Positions 10,216 to 55,198 of a stretch of DNA of 64,000 nt are shown piece by piece (the first letter of the stretch is position 1; the number at the start of each line of letters is the position of its first letter). The DNA is taken from the NCBI GenBank assembly GCA_964016885.1, contig OZ024746.1:73966001-74030000 (forward strand), given 5' to 3'. A program made the position numbers and the translations under genes. This DNA is from Eledone cirrhosa (lineage: Eukaryota). The notes below the pieces were generated by a model that was given only the letters and a program-made list of their open reading frames with translations, had not been told where the DNA came from and searched no databases.

Positions 10216-10902
10216 TTTCTTTTTACTTAAAAAAAGGGGCTCACGACGGCTTTTTTTTATATAAATGTAATTTGATTGGTTATAAATGAAATTATGTTTG
10301 TCACGTGAACAAGGTTCATTAAATTTCGCGCTCGTATTTGGGAATTCATTTTGAAGCCTTTTAGAGAATTTTATGACAAGCAAAAGATAATGGTCAAGAG
10401 AAATGGGATGGGAGAATTGTTCTCGTTCAGTGAATATGGTTGGTTCGCTGGGGTGTCAGAATTCAGATTTTCTATTAAAATAAAAAAAGTAAAGATATGT
10501 ATGTTTATTTGTGTGCTTGTGTGTGTGTGTGTGTGTATAGGAAGATGATTCTATTAGTAGAAATGGGGGAGGGAGTGTGTGTGTGTCTTGTTATGTGTGT
10601 GTATGGGTGCTATGTGTGTGTGGGAGTATGGTTAGCATGTTAAGATGAAGAGAATATATATATATATATATATATTGTGTGTGTGTGTGTAGGAAAATGA
10701 TTCCGTTATTAGGAATATTTTTGAATAAACATATTTTCCTTACTTATTCGTATTTGTTCTGTTGTATTGTCATATTTGTTCTGTTGTATATATATATTAT
10801 TAGTACAGGTTAAAGTTTAAGCAAAGAATTTCCGCTTTCACCTTCTTAGCGGATCTTCTGAAACTCGAGCCCTCTTCGGATTTTGGTCTTCGTATATATA
10901 TA

Positions 10903-27955: not shown

Positions 27956-28777
27956 TATATATATATAATAAAGAGAGACAAACAGAGATATATACATATA
28001 TGCGTTCAACTGACAAGGGTCGTAAACCGCCAGGGTGAAGAAAATACTAACTAAGGATAATTACGGCGGTTCGCAAGACTCAATTAGTATGTTTGATATA
28101 TATATAATTAATAAAAAAAAAATGTTCGCTCTACATGGTTGAATACAATAAATGTAATCTGAGTTTTTTTAATATTAATAATAATATTCGATTCGTTTGC
28201 AATTATGCAAACAACCTCTTTTTTAAACCCATGTCAGTAGAACGAACCCCATTCTTGCTCTTGTGTAAACATTAGTGTCTGCAGTTCTGTTTTGCATGCC
28301 AACACAAGAGCACACTTATTAATCTATATAGATATTTATATACTTACAACCTGTTGCAATATAATAAGATACATTGTACTTACAACCATAATTCTTCATA
28401 TAATCTAATTGATTATATATATAATATTATAACTCATAATATAGCTAAATATTTTTTTTTAAATTCTGAAATCATATTCTACCATTCCTACAAATGGTTA
28501 ATTCTTTTTAAATTCACGTAAATACAAGCTATTCCTTCTTTCTCTCTCTTTTTCCTACACATACATATATATCCTAATAATTATTTAAATCTACCTAGCG
28601 TCTAAAAATAACGTTTTATTTCAGCCCTATACCTCAACCTCATTTGCATATTCATCTTAATAATTTGAAATATTTGACTTTTACTCTCTTTCCCTTCTTT
28701 CCTTTTACCATCAAGGAAAAACTTGAACCTTTAAGATCCCCTCCCCGGATATGTCAATATTTATGAAACAAACTTTG

Positions 28778-29008: not shown

Positions 29009-29543
29009 ATATGTATATATATATATATTTCGCAACGTTCTTACATAAAGCTCTTTGCAGTTCTGACTTATTTGAATATGTTGCTCATCAGTAAATCTCA
29101 CAGTTAAACAGTTAAGTAAAATGTAGTTATAAGCAGCCCATTATCATTGATTTAGAAAATAGCTAATAACAGCTTTTATGCTTTTTCTCCGTGTTGATAT
29201 TGACAATGATTTTCAATAAATTATCATTATGTTAGTCAGGTTATCGATTTAAACCTACATATGATTTACTATTTAGCAGCTAATAATCTTAAACAGCTCT
29301 CACTTGTATTTGATATCTTTAGTCAGTTGAGCCTCTCTTTGTGCTTGATTTGAATATTTTATTTCTGGTTAGTCGTTAACTTAATTTTGTAGATTATTGC
29401 TTTCGATGTATAGCGAATGGTTATCTATAGCTGACGCGTATTCCATAACACACACATATCGGGCCGTTTGTTTACAAAGGAATCGAATATTATCATTAAT
29501 ATTCGATATAACCCATACGTACATATGTATATGTATATGTGTG

Positions 29544-29608
<65 letters not shown>

Positions 29609-29706
29609 GTGTGTGTGCGTCTGTGTGTGTGTGTGTGTGTGTGTATGTGTGTACGCATGCATACATACTTTATGTATCAGCTGTGTTAGGGTGAGAAATA
29701 AAATTC

Positions 29707-29742
<36 letters not shown>

Positions 29743-34736: not shown

Positions 34737-34801
34737 TATTTTATCTGATGAAAGCACACCATAATTTAACTTGGTGTCCTTGAAATATGTATAATGAAAT
34801 A
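34737..34801 (+). ncRNA. Type I minimal hammerhead ribozyme (family F4), intact core
   Basis: tattttat-CTGATGA-aagcacacca taatttaact tggtgtcctt-GAAA-tatgta-TA-atgaaata. 8-bp stem I (one GU), 9 of 10 pairs in stem II, AUA triplet. Confidence 0.8.
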
Positions 34802-36445: not shown

Positions 36446-36523
36446 GCTCTGCTGATGATCGACTCCAACCGTGACTATCTCCACTGAAAGTTTCGTGAAA
36501 TAGTCTTTAAGACTATACAGAGC
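36446..36523 (+). ncRNA. Type I hammerhead motif with a full stem III, inside 62-bp inverted arms (36235-36296 / 36619-36680)
   Basis: gctctg-CTGATGA-tcga...ttcgt-GAAA-tagtc tttaa gacta-TA-cagagc. Stems I and III are perfect, stem II is eroded. Confidence 0.72.
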
Positions 36524-37760: not shown

Positions 37761-40384
37761 CACACACACACACAAACATACATACATACGTATGCACATC
37801 ACTAACATGCACATAAACGCTTCTCAAACTCTCCCTCTTTATTCTCCCATTTTATTCTATCTCTAATAATCTTTCTTCCTTTTTGTTTTCTTCTTTCCTT
37901 CCGTCCCCTTTTCCATTTCATCTCTTTCTCTACTATCTTTGTTATATATTTCTACCTCTGTTATCTCATTCCATTCTTGTTTTCTCTCCTCCACAACTTA
38001 CTTCCTGCTCTCCATGTATACGTTCCCGCTGTTTTGTACATCCTCTTCTTCCCTCTCGCATATTTTCTCTATTTCTTTCCCCTCCTATATTCTCTCTCTT
38101 TTCATTTTTAAACAAACCCCTCGCAATACTTCGCTCACTCCACCCACGCAATTTCACAAATCAATGTTAATATCTCTCTGGGGTGCATATGTTTGGCATT
38201 GGGAACCATATTTTTTAAAGCATCGTTGAATAACTAATTACTGAAGTCCTGGTATTGGCACATATTGTAGTAGCAAAGGTGGTAGGGGTGATACTGATGG
38301 TAATAGTTGTGCTGTCACTCGTAGTGGATGTCATGGTTGTGGTATTAGTGTTGTTATTGTGGCTGTTTAGTCCTAGGATATTCATGACCTAGTAAATTTA
38401 TTATTAAAGAAGTTTCACTCAAGACACCCTTGTGCTTCCTTACTCACTGCGGTCATTTTAATGAGAAGAGGAGAGAAAAGGAGAGCTATCCTTATAACTA
38501 CGAGTAAGATGTTTTCGAATCAACACTTTGAAAAATACGAAATGTTTGATTTTACAAGGAAAAAATATGAAATTAGATGTAAATAATTAAGGATATGAAT
38601 GAATTCGACGCACACATTTTTTATGTTTTACAAATATCTTCACTTGCAGGAACCACAAATTTAAATGAAATATTTTTATTGTCCCTAGAAAAATAAATGT
38701 TTCTTAAAAGGGATGCTTAGTTAGATTTTCTTTCTTTTGTCATTGTATTTCTTTTTGTCAGCATATATATTTTTTTATCACAACCACCATCAGCAATATC
38801 ATTTAAAACTTCGACGGGATATATTGTCCACACTGCCATTGTATCTCACAATCTTAACTTTATGAATTACAGATGGTTTTATAAATCTGCTGAACTAACC
38901 AGAACTTCTAAAAAATATTTTGCGAATTCGTCCTTTCAGTTTTGTTTTCTTCTTTTCTTTTTTCACTGTACTACTGCACTTAAACTGTCAATCTTCGTTC
39001 TGATGGTTGCTCGCCTGAAAGAAATGTGCTTTTGATTGTGATCTTTGATCGAAATTGATGAAAGATATTTTATTTCAATCATTATTGTGCTTCATACTAG
39101 CTGTATAGAAATTCGATGATGAAGCAACTCTTTGTTCTTCTTCCTTTCTTTTTTTTTTTTTTTTAATAAAGCTTGTGTTCTGAATATTACGCTCTGCTGA
39201 ATCTCCAATAGCTGATCTGGGCCTTTTTCTTCTTTTGTACCCATTTTATCCTTGCTAATTATCGGTAATTTTTCTTCCAATCCAATAACTTCCACCTCCT
39301 TGGCAGTTTCATCACTTGCCTTAGCGATGTTAACTTGTTGAGAACATTGAATAGTAAATTGAGGGTTTCGAAGCATACTTTTGTAAAATAATGTACAAAG
39401 TTTATTCTAGGAGTCAAAAATACTAAAACATTGCTGAATATACACTCATATTGTACACTATGTAGATAGATGGTATATATGGCTTGTAGGAAATTATACA
39501 GTACAAAAATATATTTTTTTCATTTATTATACATAATATGAACCACAGTTTTGAAATGTCTGATGCAAAATTATCAATCAAATAAAATCAAGAAACACAG
39601 TGACAATGAGTATCCCTGTCAATTATCAATTTGACACCACTCACTAGCATATATCTTTATCGGTTAGAGACCTACAGATTAAGAATCTAACCACGTCATA
39701 GAGGAAGACTTAAATATATTATAGTGATATGACATTTATTATCAGGACCATGATTTATATCTGCTACTCTATGAAATCTGCCTGATATAATCTGAAGTAG
39801 AACAGTTATGATGATTAATTTAGTTATATATTCTTACATTCTCTATGAAAAAACAAACAAAAACATATATATATATATATATATATATATACATTGTTAT
39901 ACTTGGGGAGGGTCATATTGTAATAATATTGCCAGAAATAATAACAGAAACACACTCAATGTTTCGCTTCTGTATCTTTAATATTTCAATAGTTAATTTA
40001 TTTGGCAATCAACGTTTATCATTGATTGATCAACGGTTAAAAATACAGATATAAATATATATATATATATATAGTCTATCGAAGTGTTCTTTCGTTGCAC
40101 ATCTGCAACATCATCAGTGGTACTATTATTATCAAAAACCTTGCAAAACAAATATATATATATATATATATAAATGTAAGTATGTATACGTACATACATA
40201 TATGTATACAGACGTACAGTAGTATGTACATATACATACATGCACACATATATATATATGTACGTATGGTTTACCGAACATTTATTATAATGTTCGATTT
40301 GTTTGTAAACAAACAAACAGCCCGAATTACGCCGTACAGTGTTCGGCAACCATCGTCGCCTTTTTTTTCAACACTGACACAGGA

Positions 40385-40427
40385 ACGATGTACTAGTTTC
40401 AAGCTTATTAGCTATCGTCAGCATCGT
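40385..40427 (-). ncRNA. Type I minimal hammerhead ribozyme (family F6, copy 1)
   Basis: Minus strand: acgatg-CTGACGA-tagct aata agctt-GAAA-ctag-TA-catcgt. 6-bp stem I, palindromic actagt stem III, GUA triplet. Confidence 0.85.
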
Positions 40428-41114
40428 ATACCTTCTTGCCAGATGGTTGAACGTTTGAAAGTATATACTTTCCTTATGCATATTAACGGGTGAGCAACCT
40501 AATTTGCATATCGAATGAGTTAGTCGGCCGGTCGTACCGAAAACGATAAATGGTAAAGAATGAAACGAAATATATATACACATACTACTGCACGTCTGTA
40601 TACATATATGTATGTACGTATACATACTTACATTTAAGTATCAGCCGTACTAAGAGTGAGAAATGAAATTTTGTTTCATTATTTTCCTTATATATATATA
40701 TATATATATATATATTACTATAAATAATAACTTAGAACATCGAGTTACACCTAAGGACGGACTGAAGTGACAGAGGCTACTACGAAGAGTTGTACTTCAT
40801 ATCTCACAATTTCCAGCAATAAAATAACATTTTGCGCCTCTCCTCCTTCTCATTAATGATGCAGTGTTTCACACTTACATGTCTTCTAAATGACTAAGAC
40901 CAACATGGAAAGGCCATCACACTGACAAAACCCCAGTGTAACACGTATCAACATCGGTGACCAAAATATCGGAAAAACTCCAACTTATACTACAAAGTAT
41001 CAGTTAAGAAATTACAGACGTATGGTTTAAATTCGGCATGGTATCTCATGCTTCGGAGGAGACCATTCCATGTGCAAATCCCATGGTCATTCATGGGCAA
41101 AGGGAACCTTCCTT

Positions 41115-41196
<82 letters not shown>

Positions 41197-41427
41197 TATG
41201 TGTGTATACGTACATACATATATGTATACAGACGTACAGTAGCATGCATATATATATATATATATATATACATACAGGTACACATACATATATGCACGTA
41301 TCAGTTTAGCGGACGCTTATTATAACGCCGCTTTGTTCGTTTGTAAACAAACTGAACAGCCTGAATATTTTTGCCGTACGGTGTTAAGGCAACCACGTCA
41401 CCTTTTTTGTTCAACACTGACACAGGA

Positions 41428-41470
41428 ACGATGTACTAGTTTCGAGCTTGTTAGCTATCATCAGCACCGT
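41428..41470 (-). ncRNA. Type I minimal hammerhead ribozyme (family F6, copy 2)
   Basis: acggtg-CTGATGA-tagct aaca agctc-GAAA-ctag-TA-catcgt; the stem I change keeps a GU pair. Confidence 0.83.
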
Positions 41471-41837
41471 ATACCCATCTGCCAGATAGTTGAACGTTCG
41501 AAAATATATACTTTCCTTATGAAAATTAACGGCTGAGCAGCCTAATTTGCATATCGAGTGAGCTAAGTCGGTCAGGCATACCGAAAACGATAAGTTGAAA
41601 TAAAATGAAAACGAATGTATGTACGTATACACACATACTTACATTTAAGTAAGTGCCGTACTAAGAGTGAGAAATGAAATTTCGTTTTCATTTTATTTCA
41701 ACTTATATATATATATATTTATAAATGGAATAGAATGAAACGAAATTTCATTTCTCACTCTTAGTACGGCAGTTACTTAAATGTAAATATGTATGTATAC
41801 GTACATACATATATGTATACAGACATACAGTAGTATG

Positions 41838-41911
<74 letters not shown>

Positions 41912-42060
41912 CATGCACACACATATATATATATGCACGTATCGGTTTACCAAACATTTATTATAATGCTCGGTTTGTTTGTAAACAAACAAACAGCCCG
42001 AATTACACCGTACAGTGTTTAGGCAACCACGTCACCCTTTTGTTCAACACTGACACAGGA

Positions 42061-42103
42061 ACGATGTACTAGTTTCAAGCTTATTAACTATCATCAGCAT
42101 CGT
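42061..42103 (-). ncRNA. Type I minimal hammerhead ribozyme (family F6, copy 3)
   Basis: acgatg-CTGATGA-tagtt aata agctt-GAAA-ctag-TA-catcgt; the stem II change keeps a UG pair. Confidence 0.83.
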
Positions 42104-42230
42104 ATACCTTCCTGCCAGATGATTGAACGTCTGAAAGTATATACTTTCCTTATGCATATTAACGGCTGAGCAGCCTAATCTGCATATCGAGTGAGTTTAG
42201 TCGGCCGGGCGCACCGAAAACGATAAGTAG

Positions 42231-42363: not shown

Positions 42364-42686
42364 CAAAGAGGGTGTGGTAAGATACCTGGTGGCCATAACG
42401 CACCAGATTATTCAATATTTAGGGTAGTAGAGAGTGGGTAATAGGAAAAGTGTCAGGACCCCGACGGCTGAGCTCTGGCCGTTTCGAGAGCTAGATCCGA
42501 ACTAAGCCACCATTATTAAGTTCAGCTAGATTCCCGCCGTCCTAATACTCGTGGCTTAGTTCGGATCTGGCTGTCGAAATGGAACGGCCAGAGCTCAGCC
42601 GTCGGGGTGCTGACACTTTTCCTATTACCCATTGATTGATAAGCTCAATCGATCTTGCCCGACTCTGGATATATATATATATATGT

Positions 42687-50816: not shown

Positions 50817-50867
50817 AGCTTCCTGATGATTTCTCACGAATGAAACAGTTCTAGTCCTGTAGAAGCT
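50817..50867 (+). ncRNA. Type I hammerhead ribozyme motif between (TA)n tracts
   Basis: agcttc-CTGATGA-tttc tcac gaat-GAAA-cag ttctagtc ctg-TA-gaagct. 6-bp stem I, 3-bp stem III, GUA triplet, weak stem II. Confidence 0.75.
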
Positions 50868-54237: not shown

Positions 54238-55164
54238 TAATTACGATAAGAATGTACTCATTTCTTCTAACTTTAAATTTATACCTAATTGTGTATGGTT
54301 GACGGTATATTTAGTCAGTATGGTTGACGGTATATTTAGTGTCTAGCAACCATCGTTGCTCGTTTGTTCAACACTGACAAAGGAACGTATACCTTTGTCA
54401 GTGTTGAACAAACGAGCAACGATGGTCGCTAGACACTACGGCTTAATACGGGATGTTTGTTTACAAACACACCGAGCATTATAATAAATGTTCGGTGAAT
54501 ACATACGTACATATATATATATGTGTGCATGTATGTATATATATATACATACTACTGTACGTCTGTATACATATATGTATGTACGTGTTCATACTTATAT
54601 TTATATATATATATTTGTTTTACAAGGTTTTTGATATGAAATCGTGTGTCGAAATAAATATTGTTATACTTGGGGAGGGTCATATTGTTGTAATAATATT
54701 GCCAGAAATCATAACAGAACACACTCACTCTTTTATCTGTATCTTTTATATCTCCATATTTAATTTATTTGGCAATCAGTGTTTATCACTGATTGACCAA
54801 CGGTTAAAAATACAGATATAAATATATATATAGTCTAACAAAGTTCTTTCGTTGCTATTATCATGTTCCCTCATATTGTATTGTAATATTTTCGCCATTT
54901 TTCCACAAAAATGGCGTAAACATTACAATACAATAGGAGGGAACATGATAACAGTACCACTGATGATGTTGCAGAAGTGCAACGAAAGAACTTTGTTAGA
55001 CTATATATATATATTTATATCTGTATTTTTAACCATTGGTCAATCAATGATAAACGTTGATTGCCAAATAAATTAACTATGGAGATATAAAAGATAGAGA
55101 AGCAAAAACCAACCAAACAGTGAATGTGTTCTGTTATTATTACAACAATATGACCCTCCCTAAG

Positions 55165-55198
<34 letters not shown>

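What the first reader, a model, noticed from the sequence alone, without database searches (positions are those of the whole stretch)
40170..42230. Retrozyme-like family F6: three co-oriented units, each with an intact HHR at the tip of an extended imperfect hairpin
Seen: a ~500-bp ORF-less unit occurs at about 40170-40680, 41195-41700 and 41770-42230. Each carries the same minus-strand HHR, with substitutions limited to the core N position, the loop, GU-compatible stem positions and the unpaired base closing stem II. The HHR flanks are themselves partly complementary (ttcaacactgacacagg versus cct..tgccagatggttgaa), extending stem I. The first unit also has ~60-bp inverted arms (40175-40235 / 40575-40632). 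HHR spacings are 1043 and 633 nt. Inference: a minus-strand transcript would be cut into defined RNAs that could circularise, as described for retrozymes.
Basis: partly seen in the sequence, partly recalled or inferred. Interest (0 to 1): 0.75.

Follow-up and report, generated by a model that had tools for sequence, protein, structure and literature searches.

The report
Penelope-inserted hammerhead retrozymes, U6-type promoter
These are three separate insertions of a very abundant non-coding repeat that carries a predicted self-cutting RNA just behind a motif matching the host's U6-type gene promoters, and that is likely copied from small RNA circles by Penelope-type jumping genes; the cluster itself is ordinary, but the family makes an open question about such elements testable.

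Summary
The three minus-strand type I hammerheads are real (spacings 1043 and 633 nt confirmed). They are not one array. They are three independent, (TA)n-flanked insertions from two subfamilies, separated by single-copy DNA or a TA tract, so 633 and 1043 nt are not monomer lengths. The family has 23,919 exact ribozyme-core matches in the 3-Gb genome. True head-to-tail monomers are 420-433 and 466-538 nt. Insertions are two divergent arms; in 19 of 19 classifiable cases a ~55-60-nt tail sits at exactly one end, the Penelope-element signature. One array alternates A-B-A-B, as a dimeric circle would give. A sister family keeps the hammerhead through compensatory changes. A box 81-89 nt upstream of the ribozyme matches the -78 element of five host U6/U6atac/MRP genes, though its TATA spacing is about 5 nt shorter. 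No RNA data were available, and no autonomous partner was found. Verdict: a non-LTR retrozyme family with Penelope-type insertion and a likely built-in promoter. This scan has already noted the same family type and features on other DNA of this genome.

The parts
40173..40688 (-). Unit 1 (subfamily A): two-armed insertion in (TA)n. Sense arm 40571->40173 ends without tail; inverted arm ~40572-40688 carries the tail.
40386..40426 (-). Type I hammerhead of unit 1: 5-bp stem I, U.U-closed stem II, stem III of two pairs with a palindromic 4-mer; predicted cleavage after 40391
40495..40510 (-). U6/MRP-type upstream box of unit 1, 89 nt before the ribozyme core; TATA-like element at about 40468-40461
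40725..41050 (.). Single-copy spacer between units 1 and 2; not part of the element
41194..41703 (-). Unit 2 (subfamily B): sense arm ~41615->41194 without tail; inverted arm 41616-41703 with tail bearing B-specific variants
41429..41469 (-). Hammerhead of unit 2; predicted cleavage after 41434
41538..41553 (-). U6/MRP-type box of unit 2
41723..42230 (-). Unit 3 (subfamily A): single arm ending with the tail at ~41723; internal TA tract expanded; 5' end in (TA)n
42062..42102 (-). Hammerhead of unit 3; predicted cleavage after 42067
42171..42186 (-). U6/MRP-type box of unit 3 (one substitution in the octamer-like part)
41723..41780 (-). Tail (~55-60 nt, ends in a hairpin and a T-rich tract); present at exactly one end of two-armed insertions, and joins to the next monomer in true arrays

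Best explanation
The stretch holds three independent (TA)n-flanked insertions of a high-copy non-coding hammerhead repeat whose ends have the geometry of Penelope-element insertions, and the family likely spreads as a retrozyme: transcribed, predicted to cut itself into 420-540-nt monomers that likely circularise, and likely copied back by a Penelope reverse transcriptase/GIY-YIG endonuclease. Shown: hammerhead fold and covariation, copy number, tandem monomers, two divergent arms, tail at one end, a box matching host U6/MRP promoters, and intact Penelope ORFs in the genome. Inferred: transcription starts just upstream of stem I, driven by that box; ribozymes pair through the palindromic stem III; the enzyme primes at the fixed tail site from both sides of a cut in (TA)n and runs round the circle, which rebuilds the ribozyme junction and puts the promoter back in front of the next ribozyme. 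The three window copies are most likely slowly decaying passengers.
For: 23,919 exact core matches, reversed control 0. 29 of 30 close same-strand spacings are 420-433 or 466-538; 11 of 12 close opposite-strand pairs are divergent. Arrays run to 7 units plus an inverted arm with 0-3 differences per 228 nt, against 1-13 substitutions between loci of the same subfamily. L114 alternates A-B-A-B: 9 substitutions between A and B, 0 between like units. 19 of 19 two-ended insertions with both ends classified have a tail at exactly one end (one is a duplicate; 8 more had an unclassified end). Two autonomous RT+GIY-YIG families show the same tail/no-tail ends in (TA)n, as PMC8557442 describes for PLEs. 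55 of 72 innermost arm ends run through the cleavage site and 41 of 72 run past the predicted start, so the template was not a linear cleaved monomer or a start-to-terminator transcript. Stems are 97.5% paired with 6 double-changed pairs in 16 sequences. A sister family swaps the stem III palindrome for another palindrome. The box sits at -77 to -79 in five type-3 genes; the three units rank 2nd-4th of about 128,000 window positions.
Against: The autonomous partner was not found: no sampled Penelope locus had this repeat as its own terminal repeat (50 loci, 30), and none carried the box in its terminal repeat, though only 150 of 10,597 GIY-YIG candidates were scored. Box-to-TATA offset is 42-43 nt against 46-48 in U6/U6atac/MRP (counted by hand). 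T4-T7 runs at the monomer junction should stop polymerase III before the next ribozyme (recalled knowledge). Five of the six double-changed pairs trace to subfamily splits, i.e. few events. Individual copies lose core bases (9 of 420 core letters against 314 of 8335 elsewhere). A-B-A-B can also arise by duplicating a dimer in DNA. No A-to-G strand skew at site level.
Confidence: 0.62

Rival explanations
1. A non-autonomous Penelope-dependent element copied from linear, uncleaved read-through RNA of existing arrays. No circle is needed; arrays grow by DNA duplication and the promoter-like box may be a binding site without start function.
For: Same end geometry. The minimal ribozyme is weak: the isolated motif's minimum-energy fold is not the active fold in any of the three units, and 8 of 9 frog dimers did not cleave in the 2026 preprint. 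Duplicated insertions exist (L118).
Against: Both arms of an insertion share private sequence and arrays are nearly homogeneous up to 7 units. The ribozyme and its palindrome are kept across sister families.
Confidence: 0.23
2. The units are 5'-truncated terminal repeats (pLTRs) of an autonomous Penelope element not yet sampled.
For: PLE pLTRs carry the same kind of hammerhead and give tandem/inverted ends. Only a small part of the genome's PLEs was examined.
Against: In arrays the tail joins directly to the next monomer with no ORF. No PLE protein match lies at the locus. None of 80 PLE loci had it as terminal repeat.
Confidence: 0.08
3. One reading: the three units act together, and 633- and 1043-nt RNAs cut from this locus are functional circles.
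For: All three ribozymes and boxes are intact and co-oriented; a read-through transcript would contain the sites.
Against: Separate subfamilies and separate insertion ends; single-copy spacer; five U4+ runs in each fragment; these lengths are absent among same-strand spacings in the first 100 matches.
Confidence: 0.05
4. A DNA transposon (MITE) with terminal inverted repeats and a chance hammerhead look-alike.
For: Units 1 and 2 have inverted ends.
Against: The inverted arm varies from under 100 nt to several monomers, the two ends differ by the tail, copies form tandem arrays, and stems covary.
Confidence: 0.02

Closest known systems
Metazoan non-LTR retrozymes (Cervera and de la Pena 2020, PMC7229834: passages, section 14 and Discussion read; Li, Clavereau and Pollet 2026, 10.64898/2026.07.22.740005: parts 1-3 of 5 read, supplements closed)
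   Same: Non-coding, AT-rich, tandem monomers of a few hundred bases with one type I hammerhead each; U.U-closed stem II and short stem III like the axolotl Amex2 motif; co-occurs with PLEs.
   Different: Monomers reach 466-538 nt. The passages read report neither two-armed insertions with a one-sided tail nor a promoter box. Expression and circles were shown there and are untested here. This locus is not a tandem array.
EN+ Penelope-like elements and their pLTRs (Craig et al. 2021, PMC8557442: passages read; review PMC6765202: passages read)
   Same: Partial tandems, inverted 5'-truncated arm, tail at one end, (TA)n targets, palindromic short stem III.
   Different: No ORF. The tail is ~55-60 nt against 30-40 nt quoted. 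Sampled PLEs in this genome do not share the sequence or the U6-type box.
Newt satellite 2 and Schistosoma SM-alpha repeats (seen only as cited in PMC2220036 and PMC6765202; the newt paper PMC308520 was not held)
   Same: Hammerhead repeat with its own promoter, the promoter ending up at the 3' part of the cleaved monomer.
   Different: The newt promoter is described as snRNA-type for polymerase II, the schistosome one as polymerase III. Here the box matches the host's polymerase III type-3 genes and not its U1/U2 box, and the insertion ends point to Penelope enzymes.
Plant LTR retrozymes (described; original paper seen in search listing only)
   Same: Non-autonomous, hammerhead-bearing, circular-RNA model.
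   Different: Type III ribozyme, LTRs, PBS/PPT and 4-bp duplications; the ribozyme here is type I.

Membership tests
Metazoan non-LTR retrozyme | Type I hammerhead in each unit | tested here: met
Metazoan non-LTR retrozyme | Short head-to-tail repeats, dimers to multimers (family level) | tested here: met
   periods 420-433 and 466-538, up to 7 units
Metazoan non-LTR retrozyme | At least two consecutive units at this locus ('active' by Li et al.) | tested here: not met
   three separate insertions
Metazoan non-LTR retrozyme | No protein-coding capacity, low GC | tested here: met
   GC 0.315 over 40001-42000; no PLE protein hit; two TA-driven open frames not scanned against Pfam
Metazoan non-LTR retrozyme | Self-cleavage and accumulation of circular RNA | not testable with these tools
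   no raw RNA runs were offered
Autonomous EN+ Penelope-like element | RT plus GIY-YIG ORF between terminal repeats | tested here: not met
Penelope-type insertion (works like) | Tandem plus inverted arms, 3' ends outward, tail at one end, microsatellite target | tested here: met
   19 of 19 classified insertions; 11 of 12 close opposite pairs divergent
Polymerase III type-3 (U6-like) promoter | Upstream box as in host U6/U6atac/MRP | tested here: met
   scores 21.8, 20.9, 16.8 bits against 13.3-18.2 leave-one-out for the host genes; 0, 0 and 1 of 300 shuffles as high
Polymerase III type-3 (U6-like) promoter | Box-to-TATA spacing as in host genes | tested here: not met
   42-43 nt against 46-48 nt, counted by hand
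Polymerase III type-3 (U6-like) promoter | Transcription start and polymerase identity | not testable with these tools
   needs 5' end mapping and inhibitor tests
Polymerase II snRNA (U1/U2) promoter | Host box at -56 to -58 | tested here: not met
   best scores 4-6 bits, equal to shuffles
MITE | Fixed, symmetric terminal inverted repeats | tested here: not met
   variable, asymmetric arms
Plant LTR retrozyme | Type III hammerhead in LTRs | tested here: not met
   type I topology

The most novel reading that the evidence does not exclude
A self-promoting retrozyme: a host U6-type external promoter, which a normal transcript would leave behind, travels inside the self-cut RNA circle and is put back in front of the ribozyme when a Penelope enzyme copies round the circle (monomeric or dimeric) from both sides of a cut in (TA)n.
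Probability: 0.35. Interest if true: 0.75.

Novelty: new variant of a known kind. Interest (0 to 1): 0.52.

Why it matters
The retrozyme papers read here propose, but do not show, that Penelope enzymes copy retrozyme circles, and the parts read do not say how the repeats are transcribed. This family leaves genomic footprints for both: the one-sided tail and divergent arms point to the enzyme, the A-B-A-B array points to a circular template, and the U6-type box names a promoter. With about 24,000 intact ribozyme cores and young Penelope ORFs in the same genome, each step has a direct bench test. Five searches of the held library found no paper describing this combination; subscription journals and preprint supplements were not searchable.

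Tried and rejected
Rfam gathering search: 0 hits. RNA evidence: no RNA holder listed; only assembled contigs could be laid, which say nothing on expression, strand or cleavage. Editing scars: a raw count looked skewed (A>G 131 vs T>C 62) but was pseudo-replicated; at site level it vanished (singletons 21 vs 24, shared 18 vs 13, p 0.77 and 0.37). U1/U2-type box: looked similar by eye, rejected by matrix score. A T4-free transcript body as a polymerase III sign: not beyond chance (0.53-0.88 of shuffles also lack T4 in this family; 0.15-0.27 in the sister family). Pile-up of 5' ends at the cleavage site: 9 of 72 within -20 to +3, not decisive; 7 of 72 at +45 to +54 near the predicted start is a weak, post hoc hint. 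Candidate partner L101 family: the shared hairpin belonged to a neighbouring insertion, seen in 1 of 30 loci. L102 adjacency: the repeat starts after the PLE's own TA-terminated end. One search used a mis-registered structure string and is void; one search replaces it. Sequence look-up in earlier findings and near-place look-up returned nothing.

Full report
Observation. The window has three minus-strand type I hammerheads with cores starting at 40421, 41464 and 42097 and predicted cleavage after 40391, 41434 and 42067. Stem I has 5 bp, stem II 4 bp closed by an unpaired U.U or U.C, and stem III two pairs around a palindromic 4-mer. Stem I extends into an imperfect hairpin. Rfam does not detect these minimal motifs. 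The core pattern I scanned with is recalled textbook knowledge.

The family. The window lies in a 3.0-Gb genome; earlier scan notes call it cephalopod, which I did not test. A 33-base core pattern matches 23,919 times, the reversed control 0 times; a body pattern matches 21,179 times. The first 100 core matches fall in 58 clusters over 22.5 Mb. Of 30 close same-strand spacings, 18 are 420-433, 11 are 466-538 and one is 850. Of 12 close opposite-strand pairs, 11 diverge. Fetched arrays run head-to-tail up to 7 units plus an inverted arm. The 422-nt monomer folds far better than shuffles (z -7.2), partly because of its TA-rich palindromes.

This locus. Units 1 and 3 are 95% like subfamily A and 91.7% like each other; unit 2 is 91.7% like subfamily B and 84% like the others. 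Each ends in its own (TA)n. The first 320 bases of the spacer between units 1 and 2 are single-copy. Units 1 and 2 each have a sense arm without tail and an inverted arm with tail; unit 3 is a single arm with tail. So these are three insertion events, and 633 and 1043 nt are accidental distances. PMC6765202 (passages) notes that PLEs tend to insert next to earlier copies.

Insertion mechanism. Both outer ends are 3' ends at one of two fixed points about 55-60 nt apart. In 19 of 19 insertions where both ends could be classified, one has the tail and one does not; one of the 19 is a duplicate and 8 further insertions had an unclassified end. PMC8557442 (passages) describes this geometry and a (TA)n preference for PLEs. 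The genome has RT plus GIY-YIG families, one with many ~900-aa open frames, and two families show the same tail/no-tail ends. Penelope enzymes are therefore the likely mobilisers (inference). The partner was not identified: 50 loci and 30 loci showed no sharing of terminal repeats, and only 150 of 10,597 candidates were scored.

Template. From the first 100 body-pattern matches I mapped 72 innermost arm ends. 17 stop short of the cleavage site, 55 run through it, and 41 run beyond the predicted start. A linear cleaved monomer cannot give those; a circle or an uncleaved multimer can. Units within young arrays differ by 0-3 bases per 228, and L114 alternates two variants nine substitutions apart. 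That fits a dimeric circle, but a DNA duplication of a dimer also fits. Other arrays (L118, L122, L123) are more mixed.

Ribozyme constraint. A sister family, found beside a PLE locus and sampled in 20 loci, aligns along its length and keeps the core while changing stems I and II in a compensated way and swapping one stem III palindrome for another. In 16 sequences, 97.5% of 400 cells pair, 6 pairs have double changes, and slid controls give 25-40%. These are few independent events. Single copies decay almost neutrally (core 9 of 420, rest 314 of 8335), as expected if selection acts on the mobile lineage and not on each locus. Pairing of two ribozymes through stem III is predicted at -4.8 kcal/mol and is reported for PLE ribozymes.

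Promoter. Three U6 lineages, one U6atac and the RNase MRP gene share a box at -77 to -79 and a TATA near -30; 14 other U6 hits and 4 other U6atac hits, likely pseudogenes, lack it. A matrix from the five genes scores the three units 21.8, 20.9 and 16.8 bits, ranks 2-4 in the window; the top hit at 28650 is unrelated to this family. The box lies 89 nt before the core (81 in a subfamily with an 8-nt deletion, 88 in the sister family). U1/U2 genes have a different box that the repeat does not match. With only five training sites the matrix is rough, and the box contains the octamer motif (recalled), so it could be a POU-factor site. The TATA is about 5 nt closer than in host genes, and T runs at the junction argue against simple polymerase III read-through. 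I put promoter function at roughly 55%.

What failed. No RNA run was available. The editing signal proposed in an earlier scan note did not hold at site level in 83 copies.

Comparison and verdict. The family meets the sequence criteria for non-LTR retrozymes; this locus does not meet the two-consecutive-unit criterion; circles and cleavage are untested. Internal promoters are known for newt and schistosome ribozyme repeats (citations). Searches found no paper with a U6-type box or this insertion geometry for retrozymes. Earlier notes of this scan report the same on other DNA of this genome; I had reached the two-arm, tail and U6 readings before those look-ups and counted the tail asymmetry after them. 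The cluster is ordinary; the family is a new variant of a known kind. Interest 0.52.

Noticed in passing
window 4722-4668 (-), 34745-34793 (+), 35697-35643 (-), 36452-36517 (+), 50823-50861 (+), 61928-61874 (-): Six further type I hammerhead candidates of other families; some recur near PLE loci.
   Followed up: no
window 54338-54640: Truncated two-armed copy of this family without the ribozyme; both arms begin within about 10 nt downstream of the cleavage site.
   Followed up: partly
window 29466-29710 (-): Fragment of the sister family with its tail, next to (TA)n.
   Followed up: partly
window 28650-28635 (-): Best U6-type box in the window, outside this family; the DNA at about 28430-28320 resembles the flank of a U6-like copy (L220).
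   Followed up: no
window 39900-40130 and 54660-55170; 42420-42660: Two other small TA-flanked repeats with inverted structure beside the units.
   Followed up: no
window 10715-10771: Short match to the end of a PLE protein.
   Followed up: no
L091, L092, L102 (3' region of the PLE): A PLE family with 938- and 844-aa frames has a hammerhead-like motif whose core seems to carry a U-A pair in place of the usual C3-G8 pair (read by eye; the pair is recalled knowledge).
   Followed up: no
L131-L160: A young PLE family with many ~900-aa open frames and a very small hammerhead.
   Followed up: partly
L100:969 (-): A third ribozyme repeat family with the U6-type box 95 nt before its core.
   Followed up: no
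L161-L163, L191-L215, L235, L240: In this genome U6/U6atac/MRP share one upstream box at -78, while U1/U2 share a different one at -57, and both have a TATA-like element near -30.
   Followed up: partly
L118 and L296: Whole two-armed insertions duplicated in tandem with their flanks.
   Followed up: no
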